Source: Rozella allomycis CSF55
Lineage: Eukaryota
Assembly (NCBI GenBank): GCA_000442015.1
Contig: KE560636.1
Location: 1 to 64,000, forward strand
Reading direction: 5' to 3'
DNA: 64,000 nucleotides
A program made the position numbers and the translations under genes. The notes beneath the pieces are model-generated. The model was given only the letters and a program-made list of their open reading frames with translations. It had not been told where the DNA came from and made no database searches. Position 1 is the stretch's first letter. Each line of letters begins with the position of its first letter. Positions 36,734 through 50,044 of the stretch are shown here, piece by piece.

Positions 36734-37723
36734 ATGTCGTCAAAGTTGGAAATGAGTGAAAACGATCGTTTCTTGGCCTTCTCAATTTTAGAATACTTTA
36801 AAACTTGTATTGAGGGCGAAAAAATTCCAAGCACAAAAGTGGAAGCCCTCAAAGGTAATTTGGAGTCACTGAACAAATGTAGTGGCAGGGGAATGTATCT
36901 CTGAAGCCTTCAACATTGATTTTAATAAAGATTTCGACAAATACCATACCTCATCCGTTACTCTAGAGAATATATTTAAGGTTTTTATGGAAAAAAGGGA
37001 AAAGCTCAACTTGGAACAAGAAGAATTAAAAATGAAAAAAGCGGAGGAATTAAAAGCGCAAGGGAACGTCAAGCTGTCTGAGAAATGCTACGAAGAAGCC
37101 ATAAAACTCTATACCGAAGCAATTGGACTTTATCCCAAAAGCGCTATTTACTTTGGCAATAGGTAAATAGTTTCTAATATGGTAATCAGGGCCGCTGCAC
37201 TCAGCCAACAAGGAAAGTATGACCAAGCTATTGAGGATTGCCATCAGGCGTTAAAAATTGATCCGAATTACACCAAGGCGTATAGTCGGTTAGGACTAGC
37301 ATTCTTGCAACTACACAATTATGAGAAATCCGTGGAAAATTACAAAAAAGCCTTATCTTTTGACCCAAATAATGAAAATATTAAGAATGCATTAGCGCAA
37401 GCAGAAAGTAAATTGCAAACAATTAATAGAAATCAAAACGAGAGTACGTCGGAGTAAATCTCTACAACATATTTAATAGATCTCCCTCAACTAACCCTCT
37501 TGAAGGCCTGTTGAATAATCCCTCACTTTCCGGATTATTGAACAATCCACAGGTAAAATACAGATTTTATTTCTATAGGTGTCAAATATTTTGAATAACC
37601 CTGAAATGTTAAATAATATAATGAATAATCCTGCTCTTATGAATATGTAATGCATAAAGTTACCGCTAATAAAGGGCTCAAAATTTCCTCTCTGGAATGG
37701 GCAGACAGGGAAATAGTAGTTGA
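36734..37723 (+). CDS. SGT2: Small glutamine-rich TPR co-chaperone Sgt2/SGTA
   Basis: EALKVAGECISEAF; AEELKAQGN...NRAAA...IDPNYTKAYSRLG; C-terminal LLNNP repeats. Confidence 0.88.
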
Positions 37724-38099: not shown

Positions 38100-40350
38100 G
38101 GGCGCAGTCAAAAATTTATGAAATTTCCTTAAAATGTCGTCGCCTTTTCGCCGTCGCGGACCCGCCTTGTCGCTTTTGAAAGTCACGACATCATAATATT
38201 CTTTTTTTGTAATTTCTGATTGTTTTAGTTAGTTTGGATAAGCGTATTTTACCTAGAGAAGCGATAGAAAGGTTCACTGTACCAAACCAATTGTGGCAGC
38301 AAGTAATGAATAATGAAGCGTACGATGTTTGGTACAAAAGAAATTTAAGGCTATCATATCACCCCTTTTAATGTGCGCTCAAAACAAATTCGATAAGTTG
38401 GTGCGAACTCACACATTGGGTTTTAATCGCGCACGGCTTTGAAAAAATAAAAAGTTTTCCTGGGGTAGTTGGTGCTATAGATGGCACCCTAATTCCCATT
38501 GATCTTCCAAANAAAAAATTTATGAAATTTCCTTAAAATGTCGTCGCTTTTTTGTCACCAATTGGCGAAGATCCCCCTTGTCGCTTTTGAAAGTCACGAC
38601 GCAATATGAACCAAAATACCGCCATTTGCCTCTTAATACATCAAAATATTCTTTTTTTGTATTTTCTTATTGTTTTAGTTAGTTTGGATGGGCGTATTTT
38701 ACCTAGTGAAGCGATAGAAAGGTTCACTGTACCAAACCAATTGTGGCAGCAAGTAATGAATAATGAAGCGTACGATGCTTGGTACAAAAGAAATTTAAGG
38801 CTATCATATCACTCCTTTCAATGTGTGCTCAAAAAGATTTCCATAAGTTGGTGCGAAGTAAATTCTCTGCCTCATCACAATTCAACACGCGACATTGATT
38901 TTCGTTTGGCCGTCACATTAACATTTTGAAGCAGCTCGAGTGGTTTTCGAGAGGTTGCAGGGCATTATGGGATTAGCAAATATAGTGCTGTACATTACGT
39001 GCATCAAGTCGTAAATGTTCTTTATAAAATCTCAAACACCATTATTAAGTTACCTCAGACTGGAACACATTGGGTTTCAATCGCGTACGGCTTTGAAAAA
39101 ATAAAAAGTTTTCCCGGGGTAGTTGGTGCTATAGATGGCACCTTAATTCCCATTGATCGTCCAAAAGACTTTGAAGGATGGTATTGTCGCAAAAATTTTA
39201 CAGCTCTCAATATGCAAGGGATTTGTGACCATGAAAGACGATTCATGGCAATATCAATACGTTCCGGTAGTCATAATGACCAGTTATTGTGGAATCGAAG
39301 CATATTTGGTGATCGGGCAAATTGTATTATACCNATCACAATTCAACACGTGACATTGATTTTCGTTTGGCCGATCACGTTAACATTGTTAAGCAGCTTG
39401 AGTGGTTTTCGAGAGGTTGCAGGGCATTATGGGATAAGCAAATATAGTGCTGTACATTACGTGAATCAAGTCGTAAATGTACTATATAAAATCTCAAACA
39501 TAATTATTAAGTTACCTCAGACTGGAACACATTAGGTTTCAATCGCGTACGGCTTTGAAAAAATAAAAAGTTTTCCCGGGGTAGTTGGTGCTATAGATGG
39601 CACCCTAATTCCCATTGATCGTTCAAAAGACTTTGAAGGATGGTATTTTGGCAAAAATTTTACAGCTCTAAATATGCAAGGGATTTGTGACCATGAAAGA
39701 CGATTAATGGCAATATCAATACGGTCAGGTAGTCATAATGACCAATTATTGTGGAATCGAAGCATATTTGGTGGTCGGGCAAATTGTATTATACCACCCG
39801 GTTTTTACTTTTTAGNAGTTAGGTAGTCATACGGACCAATTATTGTGGAATCGAAGCATATTTGGTGATCGGGCAAATTGTATTATACCGCCCGGTTTTC
39901 ACATTTTAAGTGACGCAGGATACGCTTTGCAACCTGAATTGCTTGTTCCATATCCTGAAATTGATTGCAAAGTAATATCTTTGTACAATCATTACGATAC
40001 TAACACAAGAATCGTAATTGAATGTGCCTATGAAGACTTCAAAAATAGATGGCAAAAGTTATAAATGCCATTAAATTAAAACAGTTTTCGTGAGATGGCT
40101 AAAATCGTTGGGGCTTTGTAACCCTGCACAAGTTGACTTTAAAGACAATACAGTTTTGGAAGAAAATTTTGACAATGTGTTTTACTCTGATAACACGCCA
40201 GCCAGCAGATATTGTTCATAAAAATATTCGACATAGAATTGCCGAGAGTAAACGTAATTCTATTAAAAAAATTGTTCCAAGCACAAAAACTAAATACATA
40301 AATTATTTTATTTCCTACCTTCACAATACAATCAAGCGTATTAAATAGGG
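38100..40350 (+). mobile_element. PIF/Harbinger DNA transposon: at least four overlapping, degenerate partial copies separated by N joins
   Basis: DDE_Tnp_4 motifs FPGVVGAIDGTLIPI, RKNFTALNMQGICD, GSHND, LSDAGY, TRIVIECAY..FKNRW; HTH SGFREVAGHYGISK; stops and frameshifts. Confidence 0.9.
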
Positions 40351-40398: not shown

Positions 40399-41213
40399 GA
40401 GTAATTATCACAAATTTACATAATAGTGCAAAGAGGATTAACGATCCATTCTACACACTAGATTTCGGCAATATTTTAACTACAAATCAGCCATACGACA
40501 TTTCTCTAGAACTTTTATTGCCAACTAGTCCTGTTAACGTGGGCATGGGTAATTTTATGATCAAAGTAGATCTACTCAATGCTAAAGATGAATTAATAGC
40601 ATCATGTTCGAAACCCGCCTTGTTAAGATATGAATCACTGCTGGTTAAAACAATCAAGACGGCATTCTTTGGAATGCTATATATCTTTAATTTCAAGAAA
40701 GAAGAGGAAACTTTAATTGTGACATCTTTTAATGGGTACAAAGACACTATTGTAATTAAATCATTTTGTGGTATTTAGAGTTCAAGTGCCACTAAGGTCA
40801 ATATTACTATATTGGATCCCAATATCCAGATTTATGAAGCTTTTATCAGATTCGATGCCTTATTTACTGGGTTAAGGTACACAGAAAACTGCCAATTCAT
40901 AAGATTTTATATGTACTTTTGGAAATACACAACTGCAACATTTTTTGTGTTAATATTATTCTCTATTGAAGCATTTCTGGCGTTTTGTGTAGTATACTGC
41001 GTTTATTCATTAACTATGGAAATCAATTGTAAAACTGAGTCAGTGTCGGATATTGAAAACGAGAGTGAAGACAATCTATTAACTAATGGGCATACAAAAG
41101 TTTTAGATAAGATAAATGGGGACGCCATTGTTCCTGAAATCAATGCCACCACTAGCTCAAGTGAAAGTGAAGGGCCCCCCTCAGACCAATTTCGGTCGAC
41201 AAAAAATTTTTAA
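40399..41213 (+). CDS. Seipin (BSCL2 family); 5' end lost at N gap
   Basis: QPYDISLELLLPTSPVNVGMGNFM, KPALLRYES, IQIYEAFIRFDALFTGLRFYMYFW then a TM helix. Confidence 0.88.
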
Positions 41214-44055: not shown

Positions 44056-44199
44056 CGGTAAAAAAGCATTTTATTTTGGAAAAAAGAAAAAGGAATAGTA
44101 TAAAAAAACATTTATTATTTTTACCCGATTTATGTGCAAAATGCGTAATGAAAAAATGGAAAAGGAATCGCCGTTGTTAGAAAACTTGAAAATTGAAAA

Positions 44200-44690
44200 T
44201 AGAGGACAATAATAAATAGTAACGTAGAGGGAAGTTTGATATTAAAAATAGAGAAGGAAAAACGGTAAACATTAAAAATAAAGAAGGAAAGAGGGAAGGA
44301 AGAGAGGAAAGAGGTAAAAACAAAAATAGGTTAATATTGAAAATAGAGAAGGAAAAGAGTTAAATATTAAAAATAGAGAAGGAAAAGAGTTAAATATTAA
44401 GAATAGAGAAGAAAAAGGGAAAAACAAAAAGATGTATTAAGAATAGAAAGGAATGTGGTAAACATTAAAAATAAAGATAGAAAAAGGGAAAGACGGAAAG
44501 AGGGAAAGAAGGACAGAGGGAAAGAAGGAAAGAGAGAAAGAAGAGAGAAAGAGTGAAAGAGTGAAAGAATGACAGAGGGAAGGAAGGAAAAAAGGAAGGA
44601 AGGAAAGAGGGAAAGAGGGAAAGAAGGTAAAGACATATACAGATGGAGAGAAGTAAAATTACGGAAAGATAATGGTAACAACAAAATGTG
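44200..44690 (+). repeat. Purine-rich low-complexity subterminal tract including 29-bp repeats AAAATAGAGAAGGAAAAGAGTTAAATATT
   Basis: Seen directly in sequence. Confidence 0.8.
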
Positions 44691-44707
44691 AAAATATTGA
44701 ATGCTTT

Positions 44708-46654
44708 TTATTGAGGGCGTTTATGTGGACGCCCTCTGTTAACCTGTTTCGGTGAGGCAGATGTTTTTCTGGTTTCAGCCTGCTTTACAAACCTTCCTAT
44801 GCGTGGAATATTTTCAATAAAAAAATTGCCTTTTTCACATACAATTATTATATGTTTGCAAACAGCATAAGCCAGGAAGCGCAAACAAGAACAATGCACC
44901 GGCTTTAGAGATACAATGTATGTTCGTTTTGAGTCGTTATTGCGCGACAATTTAAACACTTCATTTTTCCCTATCTTAATTAATAAATATAACAACCTCG
45001 TTGCCGCTGTATCGTGTAATGTTGAAATTCTTTTCTCGCGGCGGCTTCAACATTCCTTCTTCCTTCATCCGTAGCATAGCTTCGTAAGAATGGACGACTT
45101 TCACACTGACAGTAATCATGGATAACAATAACAAGCGTTTCCAAAGTATGTTTGAGACCTTGTCTTTTCCTGTTAACATATCGTTTCAGTCTTTCATTAA
45201 AGGATTCATTAGAGTTATTGGTTCTTGCAACGCCCAAGCGTAAAGATACCAGTTAGTGCTGTTGCCTGTAAACCATTGATCTTCTAGATAAAGCCAAACA
45301 GAGGGTTTGGCTCTAAGAGATTTTTTTAGGGCAAAATAATGTTTCTGCCATTCTTTTTCATTGCGAGTAAAATGAAGATTTCGCATTTGAGTCAATACAA
45401 TTTTTTTTGTAATCTCATCAATTTTCACTATGTAAGAAACAATATAAATTACTTTTGATTGCAAATGTTCTTTCACATTTTTTACCACATGAAACCAACA
45501 CATTAACAAGGTTGGCACATGATCTCCAGTAAAATATTTTCTAATGCTGGAACCTATTTGTGGGGCTGCATCAGCCATTATATAATCAGGTCGAAATGGT
45601 ATCTTTAAAGATTTCTGAATAAAGCTTCCAATGCATGCCATAAAAGAAGATAGTCCGATTCTTTGAAATGTGACTGCAAAGACAACGCTATGGAATGAAA
45701 ATGACCACTTATGTCTGAGATACCTAAAATTATGTAAATATGAAAAAATATTATACCAAACGCAACTACTACGAAATCAATATTAGTAAGTCGCCAAGTT
45801 TCGTCTACATGTAAAATTACTGTTTTTAATAATCGTAAAGATTCCTTGTAGGGCTTTAGCAGTCCCTTGGCAGAAAGGCAAACCATAAAATGGTCATTTT
45901 CAGTGCCCTTTCCAAATGTTACCTCTCCCTCTCCATTTATATAGGCTATAAATCCAATCCGTTGACTCTACGAACATGCCATATCCCATATCAATTGATT
46001 TCAAAATCCTTCTAAAATAATAATTATGTAATAAAAGTATATTTTAACTATCAATTGGCGAAGTTTTTTCTATTTTGTTAAGGGCGATTCAAACCGCTTC
46101 CAAAACTCGGGTAAGAAATAATGTCACGATAACATATCAAAAATTTTGGCCAAAAACCGCAGTTTTGAGCCAGATCGAGAGTTGCAGTATTTGTCAACGG
46201 AAAAAATTATACGCAAATTCTGGAACNCATAAAACAGAATCATCAGGGAAATTTTGATATTCCAAGTCGTTCATGGTATTGATGTTTTTAGTTCCGCCAG
46301 TAATAATTTGTCTGCAAGTTTCTATTGAGTTGCTATTTTCATCATCTATGTGTAATAAAAAATATATATACCTTGAGTCTTTTTAATGTATTTACGTTTG
46401 TTTATTACTTCTAATTTTGTTGGAAAGTAATCAATGTCCGAAAAATGGGCTTGCAGTTCTCTATATAAATCTTTTGGTTTTGCATCTAAATTTTCTTTTA
46501 TATACGCCAGCTTACGACTTGTAAAGAGTCCTTTACAAACCATAATATCATCACCCTCGGTGGCCGGAAAATGTTTTAAGGAATTTTTTTCAACTTTTAT
46601 TTGGCCACATTTTAGACATGACGTGGCCCTAAATTGCACTTCACATTTGCTTCC
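44708..46654 (-). pseudogene. MULE transposase with SWIM zinc finger, frameshifted
   Basis: LHVDETW, IMADAAPQI, CWFHVVKNV, TNNSNESFNERLK, SWIM CSCLRFLAYAVCKH, N-terminal C..H finger; at least three frame breaks. Confidence 0.88.
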
Positions 46655-46655
46655 N

Positions 46656-46727
46656 TAGTACAAATGTGACGATATTTAGAGAGTGTAAGATTCCTGTTTG
46701 AAATACAATGGCGAGAATTTGTTTTGC
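46656..46727 (-). other. 72-bp contig fragment of a 7TM paralog between two Ns
   Basis: AKQILAIVFQTGILHSLNIVTFVL, a diverged copy of part of 49076-49918. Confidence 0.75.
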
Positions 46728-46728
46728 N

Positions 46729-48038
46729 GCACTGACACCTGCTATTGCCAAAGCCATACATTTGAAAGTGGGACGTCGTCGAGGCTTGGGGAAAGTGTCC
46801 ATCTGGACCTGCTGCGTGTTACTCAGGGGCGGAAATAAGTCTAGCGGGTTTAAATTGTTTGCCAATGCACTTAGTCATGTGGAAAAGACATTCAATGAAG
46901 AGAAAGTCCTCAATTTTTTTTCGACAGAATACTTACAAAAGGCATTATCAATCAAAAATAATAATGAAAACTTAGTAGTGATGGAAGATGAATTGGAGTA
47001 TCTCTTTAAACGATGTGGAGTATTAAATTCATCAGGGTGTGATTCAAAACTTCGTTCAACATTGTTGTCGTTAGCGAATGGAGTTGGGTTTAATAAAAAA
47101 TGTCTTTCAGGAGAAGTGGCGGCAACATCGCCATATATATCAATACATGGATATATACAGCCACATCCATTTATTAAAGCGTTTGCACAATCTTTGAGTA
47201 ATCTTTTGTGTACTTTATGATAGATGACAGCGATGGGTTCTTTAATAGGTTTGTTTTCTTTTTTCCAGAACCCAAGCAGACTACCTTAAAATACCAAATG
47301 ACTCTCAATGAATCACTGTCGGATGTCAGTAATGAGTTGGGACAGCTCTTCATTGCGTTGTATTCCTTTCTGTTTAAAACAAACATAAGTCCGATAGAAG
47401 AATTTAATGAAGCCGCTTTAAATATGGTTCTTGATTTAGACGAAAAATTGACTTTGGCTTTCTTGGATTCATACTATCGACTGGCTGATGAGCGAAAATG
47501 TTATACGGATCATGAAAAGGCGTCCAAAGTATCTAAATCCCGTGATTTCTTATTTGCCTTTATCTTGGTAATTCATTTAGTAGAAACATTTGGTCTGTGC
47601 TTGAACTGCAAAGATTGCACAACGACTCCATTAACAATAACAGTGCGAGACGTTGCTGCAGCTAAATCATTATTAGACATTGTCACTAAAAGCAATGACT
47701 TTCTTATTGATAGCGTGAGAGATTTACCCAGTATTCCAGGTCTTCCAAGGGAAGAACAATCTAAAATGCATAAAGTTATTGTAGCCATGCTAAACTATTT
47801 TCTTAAAGAGTATCAAAACGAAAACATATTCATAAGCAAAACAGCAATGACTAGACAATTTCGAAGGGTTGGATCAGAGGACATTGCACGCATCATTTCT
47901 AAGCTTGCGAACATTGGTTTGTGCAGTGCTTTTAAGAAGTCTGGAAGAGGTAGGGAGTTGGTTGTTGAAGTGAATGGAATCATTGAAACAATTGGAAATT
48001 TCAGTGATTTTGTTAAGGAATTCTCAGAATATCGTTGA
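46729..48038 (+). CDS. DUF3987/YfjI-like AAA+ helicase-type protein with C-terminal winged-helix-like region; 5' end lost at N
   Basis: Variant Walker A LLRGGNKS; Walker B VVMEDEL; RSTLLSLANG; ISIHGYIQP; DGFFNRF; 26-nt intron at 47198-47223. Confidence 0.75.
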
Positions 48039-48468
48039 ACATAGTATAACATAAATTACATTTATTTCCTTAAGCATATTTACATCTTTACAATTACTTC
48101 CTTCCCAAGCTATTATTTTCGAATTAGTAAAAAAATAGTCAAAAGTTATTTTAATTTGCAATTTTTTCCAATTCCCATCTTTCCTTCCTTCCCGGTTCTC
48201 AAAACACTTTTGGGACTTTTCAATTCTCTTTCCCAATTTCCCAACGTTTCTTGCTTTTGATTGTTACAGCAAGCTTTGTACATTTTCATTATTTTATCTT
48301 CATTTTAATATTTGTCCATGTTATTCCTTCCAATTTGTAAACACTTTTGGACATTTTTTGTCATTTTCCTCCTTTCTTGTGCTTAATTACCTGATTCTAT
48401 ATGCATTATTTCCCTATAAAAAACGCAGTGTGTATTTTTCCAAAATAAAATGCGTTTTTACCCTCTTN

Positions 48469-48711
48469 ACAGCTAACAGGCAGAGACTTGCAATCTGTAG
48501 AAGGCACGATATTTAAGAGGAAAGGAACGAATGCACTTACCAAGGATAGAACGTAATGGGCGATTGTGATGTATGTGAGAGGAATCATTTTACCAATTGA
48601 TATTGCCAACGTAACTATCAGAAAGCAAATACCAACAATGAATGATGCGAAAAAGACACCATTCACAAGGCTTACCTGTTGTGTGATCGTTATGACAGTT
48701 TCAAGATCCAT
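48469..48711 (-). CDS. 7TM protein paralog, 5' part, truncated by N
   Basis: MDLETVITITQQVSLVNGVFF...STDCKSLPVSC, highly similar to 49076-49918. Confidence 0.75.
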
Positions 48712-49075
48712 CAGCGGGACAATGCGGAGTATTTCTTTTTTTAGTCCAGGCAGCACAAAAATGGGCACTTAATCTTTCTTAAAGAATTCATTAGTAAATT
48801 TGTAACCGATTTGCACGATCATTGGTTCAAATAACTTAATATAATTAATATGAATGCCTTTTGTTCGGCTGTGAAATGAATTTCAATGACACTAATCTAT
48901 TACAGTATTACGATCTCTAAAATCTCCATCTCTAAGAATATCATAAAAACGTGAATAGTGGCAACATTAATTTATTACTAGGAAATGGGCGCCGAAGCTT
49001 TTATATTAGNTAAAATCTCCAACTCTATAAATATCAAAAAGTGGCAAGAGGGCCAGAGGCAACATTAATTTATTA

Positions 49076-49918
49076 CTAGGAAATGGGCGCCGAAGCTTTT
49101 ATATTTGTAATTTTATGTGCCGTTGATGTGTGCTTTCTCTTGGATTCCAGTTCACTTGAAGTTCCATCTTCTCTTCTCGATTTAATATAAATCAAAAATG
49201 TAATAACATCGGTTAATATTTGAACGATATACACAATCAACACATACATGAGGCCTTCTGGAAATATAAAGAGATTGAGTACAAATGAGGCGACATTAAG
49301 AGTGTGCAGGACTCCTGTCTGAAACACAATAGCGAGAATTTGTTTTGCAAATGTATTGTTGTTTGAATTGCTTAATGTAGATGCGATATTTGATAGCTTC
49401 TTCCATTTCTTCATGTACATTACAATGACATATAGATCTGAAAACAGCAAAACAAATCTTTGAATATAGTTCCATGTTTGATCAATGACGGGTGCACATT
49501 GGAAGGGGACTGGACGGAAGGGGACTACAAAGGAGCAGAAGCAAATACCGAAAATGACGTTTAGGGCAAAGAGCACTTGCGTAGTTTTGACGATTCGATT
49601 GTCATAGTTGTATAGAGCATTTAATCTGAGACCAGAGACATACCAAGCGATGCATTTTGAAATGTAGTAGAATGCGCAGCTAACTGGCAGAGACTTGCAG
49701 TCTGTGGAAGGAAATATGTTTAAAAGAAAAGGAATGAATGCACTGATCAATGAGAGAACGTAATGGACGATTGTGATGTATGTGAGGGGAATCATTTTGC
49801 CGAATGATATTGCGAGAGTGATAATGAGAAGGCAAGTACCAACGACGAATGATGCGAAAAAGACGCCATTAACAAGACTTACTTGTTGTGTGATTGTTAT
49901 GACAGTTTCAAGGTCCAT
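49076..49918 (-). CDS. Intronless seven-transmembrane GPCR-like protein (280 aa)
   Basis: About 7 hydrophobic segments; Cys before TM3 (DC) and in ECL2 (QCAP); LR at the TM3 end; polar C-tail. Confidence 0.75.
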   Translation of the reverse strand: MDLETVITITQQVSLVNGVFFASFVVGTCLLIITLAISFGKMIPLTYITIVHYVLSLISAFIPFLLNIFPSTDCKSLPVSCAFYYISKCIAWYVSGLRLNALYNYDNRIVKTTQVLFALNVIFGICFCSFVVPFRPVPFQCAPVIDQTWNYIQRFVLLFSDLYVIVMYMKKWKKLSNIASTLSNSNNNTFAKQILAIVFQTGVLHTLNVASFVLNLFIFPEGLMYVLIVYIVQILTDVITFLIYIKSRREDGTSSELESKRKHTSTAHKITNIKASAPIS

Positions 49919-50044
49919 GAGCGGATTAATTGCGGAGTATTTCTAATTTTAGCACTGGTTAGAATAAAGAATGAGTATATACAGTATATACGTAATATTT
50001 AATGTCATATCTTAATGTAATATCTTAATGTTAGAGTAAATTAT

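What the first reader, a model, noticed from the sequence alone, without database searches (positions are those of the whole stretch)
44057..48462. Mutator-like transposon carrying a second, DUF3987-type helicase-like gene
Seen: matching 28-bp inverted termini (27/28 identical) with mirror-image purine-rich subterminal tracts enclose two divergently oriented genes, a MULE/SWIM transposase (minus strand, frameshifted) and an apparently intact AAA+ DUF3987/YfjI-like ORF (plus strand). Known: the MULE accessory genes I can name are mudrB-, Ulp1-protease- and VANC-type, whereas DUF3987 proteins are typical of phage and plasmid primase-helicase modules. Inference: a two-gene Mutator lineage with its own helicase-like ATPase, possibly undescribed. 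Caveat: three single-N joins (46227, 46655, 46728) and a stray 7TM fragment lie between the halves, and the right flank runs into N48468, so no TSD can be tested.
Basis: partly seen in the sequence, partly recalled or inferred. Interest (0 to 1): 0.78.

Follow-up and report, generated by a model that had tools for sequence, protein, structure and literature searches.

The report
Decayed fungal Mutator transposon with helicase-like passenger
A broken, badly assembled Mutator-type jumping gene in the fungal parasite Rozella allomycis has one end attached to a very divergent helicase-like gene, an unusual pairing that this single copy cannot prove to be a working two-gene transposon.

Summary
The window is Rozella allomycis CSF55. 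The 28-bp inverted termini are real: 27/28, with 0 chance matches in 100 shuffles. Both ends share GGAAGG-type subterminal motifs in mirror orientation.

The minus-strand gene looks like a MULE/SWIM transposase and is truly frame-broken. No Pfam MULE hit supports it, only protein-atlas leads, a sub-threshold SWIM hit and motifs seen by eye.

The plus-strand gene just passes Pfam's DUF3987 cut-off (27.8 and 30.2 bits against 27). Its "frameshift" is a normal 26-nt Rozella intron. It is not intact, because N46728 cuts off its 5' end.

The Ns are exact breakpoints in a patch of unreliable joins. The 5 readable flank bases give no target-site duplication, and the left flank is not 7TM. A second assembly orders the pieces differently.

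No other relative of the DUF3987-like protein was found anywhere. The verdict is a plausible but unproven two-gene MULE relic. No lineage is shown. Interest is moderate.

The parts
44057..44084 (.). Left terminal inverted repeat (GGTAAAAAAGCATTTTATTTTGGAAAAA)
   Evidence: 27/28 match to 48435-48462, with no other copy in the window.
44085..44650 (+). Left subterminal purine-rich tract with minisatellites (30-bp unit x6 at 44239-44423; 8/16/24-bp GGAAAGAA-type units at 44480-44633)
   Evidence: 80.7% purine; tandem repeats. GGAAGG 5 forward and 0 reverse.
44711..45046 (-). Transposase C-terminal piece with a SWIM-like CxC..CxH (VHCSCLRFLAYAVCKH)
   Evidence: PF04434 E=0.0066, 16.4 bits, below the cut-off of 19.6. 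Translation.
44983..45252 (-). Transposase piece in another frame, carrying RTNNSNESFNERLK (putative catalytic E region)
   Evidence: no GT..AG intron joins it to the upstream frame while keeping this motif, so this is a true frameshift near 45225-45252.
45189..45776 (-). Transposase core piece (IMADAAP ... CWFH)
   Evidence: 23 of 30 atlas neighbours are in the MULE set, top score 0.93; no Pfam MULE hit; no homologue among 142 candidates.
45608..45967 (-). Transposase piece with the putative first catalytic D (HVDETW), in a third frame. A one-base shift near 45610 links it to the next piece.
   Evidence: top score 0.95; 8 of 30 neighbours are in MULE / ZSWIM1-3 RNaseH-like sets and 19 are unnamed..
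46228..46654 (-). Separate stretch between two Ns. It holds an open frame that reads like the N-terminal region of the transposase, cut at both Ns.
   Evidence: ORFs 46346-46675 and 46194-46382. No family hit. The assignment is by eye only.
46656..46727 (-). 72-bp fragment of a 7TM paralogue (7TM-B), bounded exactly by N46655 and N46728
   Evidence: 84.5% identical to 49278-49348 of the intact neighbour, covering aa 199-222.
46729..47197 (+). DUF3987-like gene, exon 1. It is open from the N with no start codon. It holds a Walker-A-like LRGGNKSS, a Walker-B-like VVMEDE and the QP motif.
   Evidence: PF13148 at 27.8 and 27.1 bits against a cut-off of 27, profile positions 139-212; collinear with YfjI.
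47198..47223 (+). 26-nt intron GTAATC...GATAG
   Evidence: the annotated protein P0001 reads AQSL-N-DSDG across it; the local intron mode is 26-27 nt with GTAA/GTAT donors.
47224..48038 (+). DUF3987-like gene, exon 2 (GFFNRF motif, then about 190 aa with no family match), ending in a stop codon
   Evidence: PF13148 E=0.089, profile positions 221-295. P0001 scores 30.2 bits; no relatives beyond Rozella.
48039..48434 (+). Right subterminal pyrimidine-leaning tract with inverted GGAAGG/AAGGAA motifs
   Evidence: 65% pyrimidine. CCTTCC 4 of the window's 14, with none in forward orientation; pairs I1 and I5.
48435..48462 (.). Right terminal inverted repeat
48463..48468 (.). CTCTT plus N48468. This is the only readable right flank, followed by a join.
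   Evidence: homology to the 7TM neighbour starts right after the N, and CTCTT is absent from the left flank.
48469..48768 (-). N-terminal part (aa 5-93) of the 7TM paralogue 7TM-B
   Evidence: 84% identical to 49677-49952.

Best explanation
The region is the relic of a low-copy Mutator-like element (MULE) of Rozella allomycis, lying in a badly scaffolded patch next to tandem 7TM genes.

Shown:
- Two ends of one terminal family: a 28-bp terminal inverted repeat plus mirror-oriented GGAAGG-type subterminal motifs.
- Inside the left end, a MULE-like DDE/SWIM transposase reads outward and is broken by at least one true frameshift. This copy therefore cannot move itself.
- Inside the right end, in one uninterrupted stretch with it, a gene for a very divergent DUF3987-type P-loop protein also reads outward. 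It carries a normal 26-nt Rozella intron and has no internal stop, but its 5' end is lost at N46728.

Inferred:
- The two halves were once one cut-and-paste element of at least 4.4 kb. It had two outward-facing genes whose starts and promoter(s) lay in the unresolved centre.
- The transposase bound the terminal repeats and subterminal repeats.
- The DUF3987-like gene was a passenger taken up between the termini, as MULEs often do. It has been resident long enough to hold a host-type intron.
- If it had a role in the element, the likeliest is an ATP-driven DNA-unwinding or remodelling helper. I rate that as unlikely, not as the default.
For: - Termini: 27/28 match, only two matches in the window, 0.00 expected.
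- Shared oriented motifs. GGAAGG occurs 5 times forward and 0 reverse in the left end. Its complement occurs 4 times in the 424-bp right end, out of 14 in 64 kb, with 0 in forward orientation.
- The DUF3987 ORF, the right subterminal tract and the right terminus lie in one N-free stretch, 46729-48467, with the ORF on the interior side.
- The layout is symmetric. Each gene's stop abuts its subterminal tract (44711 and 48038).
- Transposase: two different frames both give MULE / ZSWIM RNaseH-like atlas neighbours. There is a SWIM-like CxC..CxH at E=0.0066. D, D, CxxH and NNxxES motifs are visible in the translations.
- DUF3987: 27.8 bits at E=1.9e-6 for exon 1 and a collinear continuation in exon 2. 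The annotated protein scores 30.2 bits and carries PF13148 in the database's precomputed annotation. The P-loop, DE and QP..GFxxRF motifs are collinear with a YfjI-family profile.
- Intron: the annotated model uses 47198-47223. Among GTA[AT]-donor candidate introns bridging host-gene frames in the window, 26-27 nt is the commonest length (examples 37163-37189 and 40752-40778). Of the 59 candidates of 24-31 nt, 35 begin GTAA or GTAT.
- Muszewska et al. 2017 (PMC5751038, passages read) report MuLE among seven superfamilies with single representatives in Rozella.
Against: - The two genes are never seen in one uninterrupted stretch. N46655 and N46728 enclose a foreign 72-bp 7TM fragment exactly where they would join.
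- The right flank is 7TM-B but the left flank is not.
- CTCTT is absent from the left flank, so no TSD of any length up to 30 is possible as assembled.
- Other single-N joins here unite near-duplicate copies: 461 bp at 95% across N39334, 91 bp at 92% across N39816, and 44 bp at 98% around N49010.
- A single-cell assembly of the same strain yields a model (P0002) that splices antisense 7TM-B sequence upstream of the DUF3987 C-terminal half.
- There is no Pfam MULE hit at E<=10, and no transposase homologue among 142 word-sharing longer proteins.
- The DUF3987 score is only at threshold. My own YfjI-family profile gives E=0.3 (rank 2 of 1058 ORFs), and hhalign gives 8% probability.
- PHROGs, NCBIfam and PDB sequence searches found nothing.
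- The Walker A is not canonical (GGNKSS).
- No second copy or relative exists in any searched collection.
Confidence: 0.45

Rival explanations
1. Scaffolding chimera of two different copies or kinds of element that share the same termini. One is a transposase-bearing MULE whose left end is seen at 44057. The other is a separate, perhaps non-autonomous Pack-MULE-like or truncated copy, inserted in 7TM-B, whose right end carries the DUF3987-like gene. The scaffold runs from one into the other and hides what lies between.
For: - The flanks do not agree: the right flank is 7TM-B, the left is not.
- No TSD is possible.
- A 7TM-B piece sits between the halves, collinear with the flanking 7TM-B piece.
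- Single-N joins elsewhere in the window join ~92-98% duplicates.
- P0002, from another assembly, differs by an in-frame extra codon and by order. That hints at a second copy or allele.
Against: - Only two matches to the terminus occur in the window, so the missing partner ends are not nearby.
- The literature reports single representatives per superfamily in Rozella.
- The symmetric gene-to-subterminal layout fits a single design.
Confidence: 0.3
2. The DUF3987-like gene is a resident Rozella gene, old horizontally acquired or virus-derived and now carrying a host intron. It merely lies beside a truncated MULE end and is not cargo of any mobile unit.
For: - It has a host-type 26-nt intron and an open frame while the transposase is broken.
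- It is annotated as an ordinary gene, O9G_002260.
- No paralogues suggest amplification.
Against: - It lies on the interior side of the right terminus.
- The 396 bp between its stop and the terminus carry the element's mirrored motifs.
- No orthologue was found in any other eukaryote or prokaryote, which is odd for a conserved host gene.
Confidence: 0.12
3. The plus-strand ORF is not a DUF3987 relative at all. The Pfam hit is a borderline chance match to an orphan protein.
For: - Scores are 27.1-30.2 bits against a cut-off of 27.
- An independent YfjI-family profile gives E=0.3, and hhalign gives 8% probability.
- PHROGs, NCBIfam and PDB gave nothing.
- An exhaustive phmmer search of the C-terminal 278 aa found no bacterial or phage DUF3987 protein.
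- Both AlphaFold models were unusable.
Against: - E=1.9e-6 is already corrected for the 24,736 Pfam models.
- Two separate reading frames hit consecutive parts of the same profile, positions 139-212 then 221-295.
- The P-loop-like, DE and QP..GFxxRF motifs fall in the same order as in YfjI.
Confidence: 0.1

Closest known systems
Two-ORF MULEs: maize MuDR (mudrA/mudrB), Yarrowia Mutyl (mutA/mutB), Arabidopsis Hiun (vanA/vanB/vanC), Capsaspora MULE-Co (unknown second ORF). As listed in Dupeyron et al. 2019, PMC6446971, passages read.
   Same: A MULE-type transposase plus a second, unrelated ORF between terminal inverted repeats. The short termini compare with Mutyl at 22 bp, Phantom-Ca at 34 bp and MULE-Mucorales at 40 bp in that paper's table. 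A SWIM finger occurs in several groups.
   Different: The second ORF here is DUF3987-like. That paper's passages list no helicase ('helicase' occurs 0 times in its text). Both genes read outward from the centre, whereas from recall the MuDR genes converge from promoters in the termini. Linkage and TSDs are not shown here.
Pack-MULEs (gene-capturing non-autonomous MULEs of plants). Passages in PMC6446971 and PMC6431247.
   Same: Foreign coding sequence lies between Mutator termini, and the transposase could be supplied in trans.
   Different: Per the passages read, Pack-MULEs carry fragments of host genes and full-length captures are exceptionally rare. Here no parent gene was found in Rozella, and the ORF is long (427 codons open) with an intron.
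DUF3987 / YfjI family of bacterial prophages, plasmids and phages, including the PriCT-DUF3987 helicase AgaPH (PMC11724360, passages read).
   Same: A Pfam PF13148 match above the cut-off. The P-loop-like, Walker-B-like and QP..GFxxRF motifs are collinear with YfjI. Both sit on mobile DNA.
   Different: This one is eukaryotic, intron-bearing and extremely divergent. No primase or PriCT partner is visible, though the N-terminus is missing. The P-loop is non-canonical (GGNKSS; YfjI has GERKST). AgaPH is a shown 5'-3' helicase, whereas nothing has been tested here.
Bacterial DDE transposase + ATPase pairs (phage Mu MuA/MuB, IS21 IstA/IstB, Tn7 TnsB/TnsC). Recalled, not from any call.
   Same: Only by analogy: a DDE transposase gene next to a P-loop/AAA+-type ATPase gene inside one element.
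   Different: No homology was tested or claimed. DUF3987 is not the IstB/MuB/TnsC family. No eukaryotic cut-and-paste element is known to me to use such a partner.

Membership tests
Mutator-like elements (MULE/MuDR superfamily) | Transposase with the MULE catalytic domain (Pfam PF10551) | tested here: inconclusive
   No PF10551 hit for any of the frame pieces, even at E<=10. The word-based homologue search found none among 142 candidates. Atlas neighbours: 23 of 30 in the MULE set at up to 0.93 for 45186-45776, and 8 of 30 in MULE/ZSWIM RNaseH-like sets for 45605-45967. These are leads only. The gene is split over at least 4 frames, which lowers any profile score.
Mutator-like elements (MULE/MuDR superfamily) | D..D..E triad with a CxxH motif after the second D (definition recalled) | tested here: inconclusive
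   HVDETW, IMADAAP, CWFH and RTNNSNES are visible in order in the translations. They were read by eye and not aligned to a family profile.
Mutator-like elements (MULE/MuDR superfamily) | Terminal inverted repeats | tested here: met
   28 nt, 27/28, unique in the window, 0.00 expected by chance.
Mutator-like elements (MULE/MuDR superfamily) | 8-11-bp target-site duplication | tested here: not met
   Only 5 nt of right flank exist before N48468. CTCTT is absent from the 30 nt left of the left terminus. As assembled there is no TSD, but the join makes this weak evidence.
Mutator-like elements (MULE/MuDR superfamily) | C-terminal zinc finger (SWIM in many groups) | tested here: inconclusive
   PF04434 E=0.0066, 16.4 bits, below the cut-off of 19.6. 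A CxC..CxH pattern is present.
Mutator-like elements (MULE/MuDR superfamily) | Several copies, or empty and filled sites showing mobility | not testable with these tools
   No eukaryotic genome or read collection was open. Only two terminus matches occur in the window.
DUF3987 (PF13148, YfjI-like helicase-type P-loop proteins) | Pfam score at or above the gathering cut-off (27 bits) | tested here: met
   27.8 bits (46702-47220), 27.1 bits (46729-47217), 30.2 bits (P0001). Profile positions 139-295 of 364 are covered. PF13148 is precomputed for P0001.
DUF3987 (PF13148, YfjI-like helicase-type P-loop proteins) | [quoted passage not shown] | tested here: inconclusive
   The Walker-B-like VVMEDE is present. 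The P-loop position reads LRGGNKSS, which is not GxxxxGK[ST]. It aligns with YfjI AESGERKST at only 2.1 bits.
DUF3987 (PF13148, YfjI-like helicase-type P-loop proteins) | Independent profile or structure support | tested here: inconclusive
   My own 15-sequence YfjI-family HMM gives E=0.3, rank 2 of 1058 window ORFs. hhalign gives 8% probability, E=0.0043, over 160 collinear columns. PHROGs, NCBIfam and PDB gave 0 hits. AlphaFold pLDDT was 34 and 36.
DUF3987 (PF13148, YfjI-like helicase-type P-loop proteins) | Association with a primase (PriCT/AEP) or AlpA-type neighbour, as in prokaryotic elements | not testable with these tools
   The N-terminus and upstream DNA are lost at N46728. Nothing of the kind appears in the visible part.
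Pack-MULE (captured host gene) | A parent gene elsewhere in the host genome | tested here: not met
   Only P0001 and P0002, the same locus family, were found in Rozella or anywhere. Unannotated copies cannot be excluded.

The most novel reading that the evidence does not exclude
A eukaryotic cut-and-paste DDE transposon (MULE) carries its own helicase-type P-loop ATPase as a working partner of the transposase. This would be functionally parallel to the bacterial transposase + ATPase pairs (MuA/MuB, IstA/IstB, TnsB/TnsC). The partner would have been acquired from a prokaryotic or viral DUF3987 replication module and then fitted with host introns.
Probability: 0.08. Interest if true: 0.7.

Novelty: new variant of a known kind. 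Interest (0 to 1): 0.38.

Why it matters
If the linkage holds, this would be the first MULE reported with a DUF3987-type helicase-like gene. All 13 papers that mention DUF3987 in the searchable library are on bacteria, archaea, phages or dsDNA viruses in general, none on a eukaryotic transposon, judging by their titles and abstract starts. It would also be a rare case of this prokaryotic mobile-element family inside a eukaryotic transposon, in an early-diverging fungal parasite. That would bear on how eukaryotic DNA transposons pick up accessory functions.

As it stands it is one decayed copy in a mis-scaffolded patch. The practical value is a correction: the annotated gene O9G_002260 is a 5'-truncated model, and this region of the assembly should not be trusted for gene order.

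Tried and rejected
- AlphaFold2 without an alignment: P0001 gave pLDDT 34.1 and the 163-aa exon-1 piece gave 36.3. Both were unusable, so no fold search was run.
The name of P0002 came instead.
- The word-based homologue search with the 196-aa transposase piece, longer proteins only, found nothing among 142 candidates. It says little.
- PHROGs, NCBIfam and PDB sequence searches of five, five and one pieces gave no relevant hit.
- My own YfjI-family HMM, built from 15 sequences, did not reach significance. Its top window hit, 24396-24698 at E=0.012, looks like chance.
- The genome-contig scan (bacteria and archaea) with P0001 found 91 pattern matches, none confirmed.
- I first read the frame change at about 47200 as a frameshift. 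I rejected this after seeing the annotated model and the local 26-27-nt intron type.
- I tested whether the transposase frame changes could also be micro-introns.
  - Near 45225-45252, no solution keeps the NNxxES motif.
  - Near 45610, the only candidates either delete the conserved E..Y..L stretch or use an atypical GTTG donor.
  - At 44996-44971, a 26-nt GTTGTT..ATAG intron is possible but atypical. GTTG donors are 3 of the 59 candidates.
- A simple insertion into 7TM-B was rejected because the left flank has no 7TM similarity.
- Complex prediction was not used. Both proteins are fragments and binding is not claimed.
- Not checked:
  - Metagenome contigs and viral contigs (closed);
  - any eukaryotic genome or read set;
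  - the rest of the Rozella assemblies;
  - supplementary tables of the MULE surveys, which may list second ORFs in more detail.

Full report
**Where we are.** The window is gene-dense, 32-38% G+C eukaryotic DNA. It carries fungal housekeeping genes: She9/Mdm33, RPN1, ORC5, TIP49, RFC, SSRP1, seipin and SGTA-like TPR. A search with the plus-strand ORF returned a 97%-identical annotated protein, "hypothetical protein O9G_002260 [Rozella allomycis CSF55]". It is 343 aa, sits on a 79,180-bp contig and has Pfam PF13148 precomputed. So the window is Rozella allomycis, an intracellular parasite of the water mould Allomyces.

**The observation.**
- The termini are real. 44057-44084 and 48435-48462 are 28 nt and 96% complementary.
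- A 23-nt core with up to three mismatches matches only these two sites in 64 kb. 0.00 matches were expected in 100 dinucleotide shuffles.
- The left subterminal tract (44085-44650) is 80.7% purine. It holds a 30-bp unit repeated 6 times and GGAAAGAA-type arrays.
- The right tract (48040-48434) is only 65% pyrimidine. It has no tandem repeats and is not the most skewed part of the window.
- The two tracts share short motifs in strictly mirrored orientation. GGAAGG occurs 5 times forward and 0 reverse on the left. Its complement occurs 4 times on the right, out of 14 in the whole window, with 0 forward there. AAGGAA gives 14 on the left and 5 on the right in the same way.
- The two ends therefore belong to one terminal family beyond the 28 bp.

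**The minus-strand gene.**
- Stop-to-stop frames on the minus strand read, in order: a piece with HVDETW (45967-45608), a piece with IMADAAP...CWFH (45776-45189), a piece with RTNNSNESFNERLK (45252-44983), and a piece with VHCSCLRFLAYAVCKH (45046-44711).
- By recall, this order of D, D, CxxH, NNxxES and a CxC..CxH finger is what MULE transposases look like.
- The tool evidence is thinner.
  - Pfam gives no MULE hit for any piece, even at E<=10. SWIM scores only 16.4 bits against a cut-off of 19.6.
  - PHROGs and NCBIfam give nothing.
  - A word-based search among longer proteins found none among 142 candidates.
  - The protein atlas puts 23 of 30 neighbours of the 196-aa piece in the MULE set, with a top score of 0.93.
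  - For the 120-aa piece in another frame, it puts 8 of 30 neighbours in MULE / ZSWIM1-3 RNaseH-like sets and 19 in unnamed clusters, with a top score of 0.95.
- I accept "MULE-like" as probable, not proven.
- I tested whether the frame changes could be introns.
  - Near 45225-45252, no GT..AG solution keeps the NNxxES motif.
  - Near 45610, the reading shifts by one base. The only candidate introns there either delete the conserved E..Y..L stretch or use an atypical GTTG donor.
  - At 44996-44971, a 26-nt intron is possible, but its GTTG donor is rare here: 3 of 59 candidates.
- The transposase gene is therefore truly broken at least once, probably twice.
- A further open frame at 46228-46654, between two Ns, reads like the N-terminal region of such a transposase. 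It has no family hit.

**The plus-strand gene.**
- The first frame hits DUF3987 at E=1.9e-6 with 27.8 bits against a cut-off of 27, on profile positions 139-212.
- The second frame continues the same profile at positions 221-295, with E=0.089.
- The annotated protein P0001 reads straight across the frame change as ...AQSL-N-DSDGFFNRF... It does so by removing 47198-47223, and it scores 30.2 bits.
- I first took that 26-nt "intron" for a gene-predictor patch over a frameshift. The window says otherwise.
  - The SGTA-like and seipin genes are each bridged by 27-nt GTAA..AG introns, at 37163-37189 and 40752-40778.
  - A survey of adjacent open frames found 61 bridged ORF pairs. Among candidates with GTA[AT] donors, 26 nt (9 cases) and 27 nt (6) were the commonest lengths.
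  - Of the 59 candidates of 24-31 nt, 35 start GTAA or GTAT.
- The GTAATC...GATAG intron of the DUF3987-like gene is of exactly this type.
- So the gene is not frameshifted. It has been in a Rozella-like genome long enough to hold a host-type intron. Rozella has about 2.5 introns per kb (PMC8476143, passages read).
- It is nevertheless incomplete. The frame runs open into N46728 without a start. The annotated Met at 46981 lies inside the Walker-B-like VVMEDE.

**How good is "DUF3987"?** It is borderline.

For it:
- The E-value is already corrected for 24,736 models.
- Two frames hit consecutive profile parts.
- A profile I built from E. coli K-12 YfjI plus 10 plasmid and 4 phage homologues aligns the same landmarks in the same order: LRGGNKSS to aesGeRKst, VVMEDE to liSDEa, and IQP...DGFFNRFVFFFPEP to vQP...sGflARfLlaqP.

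Against it:
- That profile gives only E=0.3 against the window's 1058 ORFs. It ranks second, behind a chance-looking hit.
- hhalign gives 8% probability, E=0.0043.
- The PDB sequence search (exon-1 piece only) gives nothing.
- The P-loop is not canonical.
- An exhaustive phmmer search of the C-terminal 278 aa against 1.84 billion representatives found only P0001, P0002 and two repetitive spurious proteins.
- Both AlphaFold runs failed, with pLDDT of 34 and 36.

One DUF3987 protein, the PriCT-DUF3987 protein AgaPH, has been shown to be a 5'-3' helicase with Walker A and B motifs (PMC11724360, passages read). "Helicase-like" is therefore a fair label for the family, but it is untested for this protein.

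**The Ns and the order of pieces.**
- The window has 13 single Ns.
- Around the finding they are exact breakpoints.
  - Similarity to the intact 7TM gene next door (49076-49942, minus strand) starts immediately after N48468. 48470-48744 matches 49677-49952 at 84%.
  - Similarity also fills exactly the 72 bp between N46655 and N46728. 46657-46727 matches 49278-49348 at 84.5%.
- Both pieces are on the minus strand and collinear. They come from one broken paralogue (7TM-B), and element pieces lie between them.
- The left flank of the element has no 7TM similarity.
- The five readable bases right of the right terminus (CTCTT) occur nowhere in the 30 nt left of the left terminus. As assembled, the two termini do not bracket one simple insertion.
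- Elsewhere in the window, single Ns join near-duplicate copies. 38874-39333 matches 39335-39795 at 95% across N39334. 39724-39814 matches 39818-39908 at 92% across N39816. 48957-49000 matches 49055-49098 at 98% around N49010. These joins are not trustworthy in repeats.
- P0002 ("ROZALSC1DRAFT_25044 [Rozella allomycis CSF55]", 213 aa, on a 2,559-bp contig) splices 63 residues of antisense 7TM-B (window 48569-48757, 90% identity) onto the DUF3987 C-terminal half (47580-48035, 99%, with one extra codon).
- The locus-tag prefix, together with Ahrendt et al. 2018, who applied single-cell genomics to R. allomycis (PMC6784888, passages read), suggests that P0002 comes from the single-cell assembly. 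That is my inference.
- Two assemblies of one strain thus disagree on the order of 7TM-B and the DUF3987-like gene.

**What it most likely is.**
- The safest statement is this. A Mutator-type terminus (28-bp terminal repeat plus about 400 bp of motif-bearing subterminal DNA) lies in one N-free stretch with, and on the outer side of, a spliced DUF3987-like gene. The matching opposite terminus lies in one stretch with a decayed MULE-like transposase.
- Each gene's stop codon abuts its subterminal tract (44711 and 48038). Both genes read outward. Both lose their 5' ends in the unresolved centre.
- The simplest design that gives this symmetry is one element of at least 4.4 kb with two divergent genes (confidence 0.45).
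- The main rival is that the scaffold runs from one copy, or one kind of element, into another that shares the termini (0.30).
- Less likely, the gene is a resident gene beside a truncated end (0.12), or it is not DUF3987 at all (0.10).
- Whichever holds, this copy is dead as an autonomous transposon.
- On function I commit to "passenger". MULEs are known to take up foreign ORFs: mudrB, mutB, vanB/vanC, an unknown second ORF in Capsaspora, and Pack-MULE fragments (PMC6446971 and PMC6431247, passages read). Nothing here shows a role in transposition.
- The open, intron-bearing frame beside a broken transposase hints that the gene outlived the element. With about 430 codons against about 600, that contrast is not statistically strong. 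This is my estimate, not a computed test.

**Novelty.**
- Full-text searches found 13 papers that mention DUF3987. By title and abstract start all concern bacteria, archaea, phages or dsDNA viruses in general, and none a eukaryotic transposon.
- Four papers mention it together with "transposon", all bacterial. One mentions it with "Mutator", where the word occurs only in a reference title.
- The MULE survey I read in passages lists second ORFs but no helicase.
- Muszewska et al. 2017 report that Rozella has single representatives of seven DNA-transposon superfamilies, including MuLE and PIF/Harbinger (PMC5751038, passages read). That fits the low copy number seen here.
- If the linkage is real, this is a new variant of a known kind. 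With one decayed copy, no relatives anywhere and an unreliable scaffold, I score it 0.38 rather than 0.78.

**Limits.**
- No eukaryotic genome, read or metagenome collection could be searched.
- Supplementary tables of the MULE surveys were not read.

Noticed in passing
window 38110-39908: PIF/Harbinger-type DDE_Tnp_4 fragments. 38930-39333 and 39536-39826 both match profile positions 1-67. They lie in a patch where single Ns join near-duplicate copies: 38874-39333 matches 39335-39795 at 95%, and 39724-39814 matches 39818-39908 at 92%. This looks like assembly stutter of repeat copies or haplotypes.
   Followed up: partly
whole window, e.g. 37163-37189, 40752-40778, 47198-47223: Host genes are interrupted by ultra-short introns. 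Candidates bridging adjacent open frames peak at 26-27 nt, and 35 of 59 candidates of 24-31 nt have GTAA or GTAT donors. Frame changes in this genome should not be read as frameshifts without checking for such introns.
   Followed up: partly
window 48469-49942: Tandem paralogues of a multi-pass membrane ('7TM') protein with no Pfam family. One is intact, a 288-codon open frame at 49076-49942 on the minus strand. One is broken (7TM-B) and about 84% identical in DNA.
   Followed up: partly
window 46981-48038 (gene model O9G_002260 = P0001): The public gene model starts at a Met inside the Walker-B-like motif. The open frame continues 84 codons upstream to N46728, so the annotated protein is 5'-truncated.
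   Followed up: yes
window 48569-48757 and 47580-48035 (protein P0002): A second public gene model from the same strain fuses antisense 7TM-B sequence to the C-terminal half of the DUF3987-like gene. It also has one extra codon (FVKKEF against FVKEF). This is either a chimeric model or contig, or a sign of a second copy or allele.
   Followed up: partly
window 10735-12633 (+): A 632-codon open frame with no Pfam match at E<=0.001.
   Followed up: no
window 48957-49000 and 49055-49098: A 44-bp stretch repeated at 98% identity on either side of N49010, between the two 7TM genes. This is another suspect join, where sequence may be missing.
   Followed up: no
window 24396-24698 (+): The best window hit of my YfjI-family profile (E=0.012, 10 bits, over a low-information helical part of the profile). 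It is probably chance.
   Followed up: no
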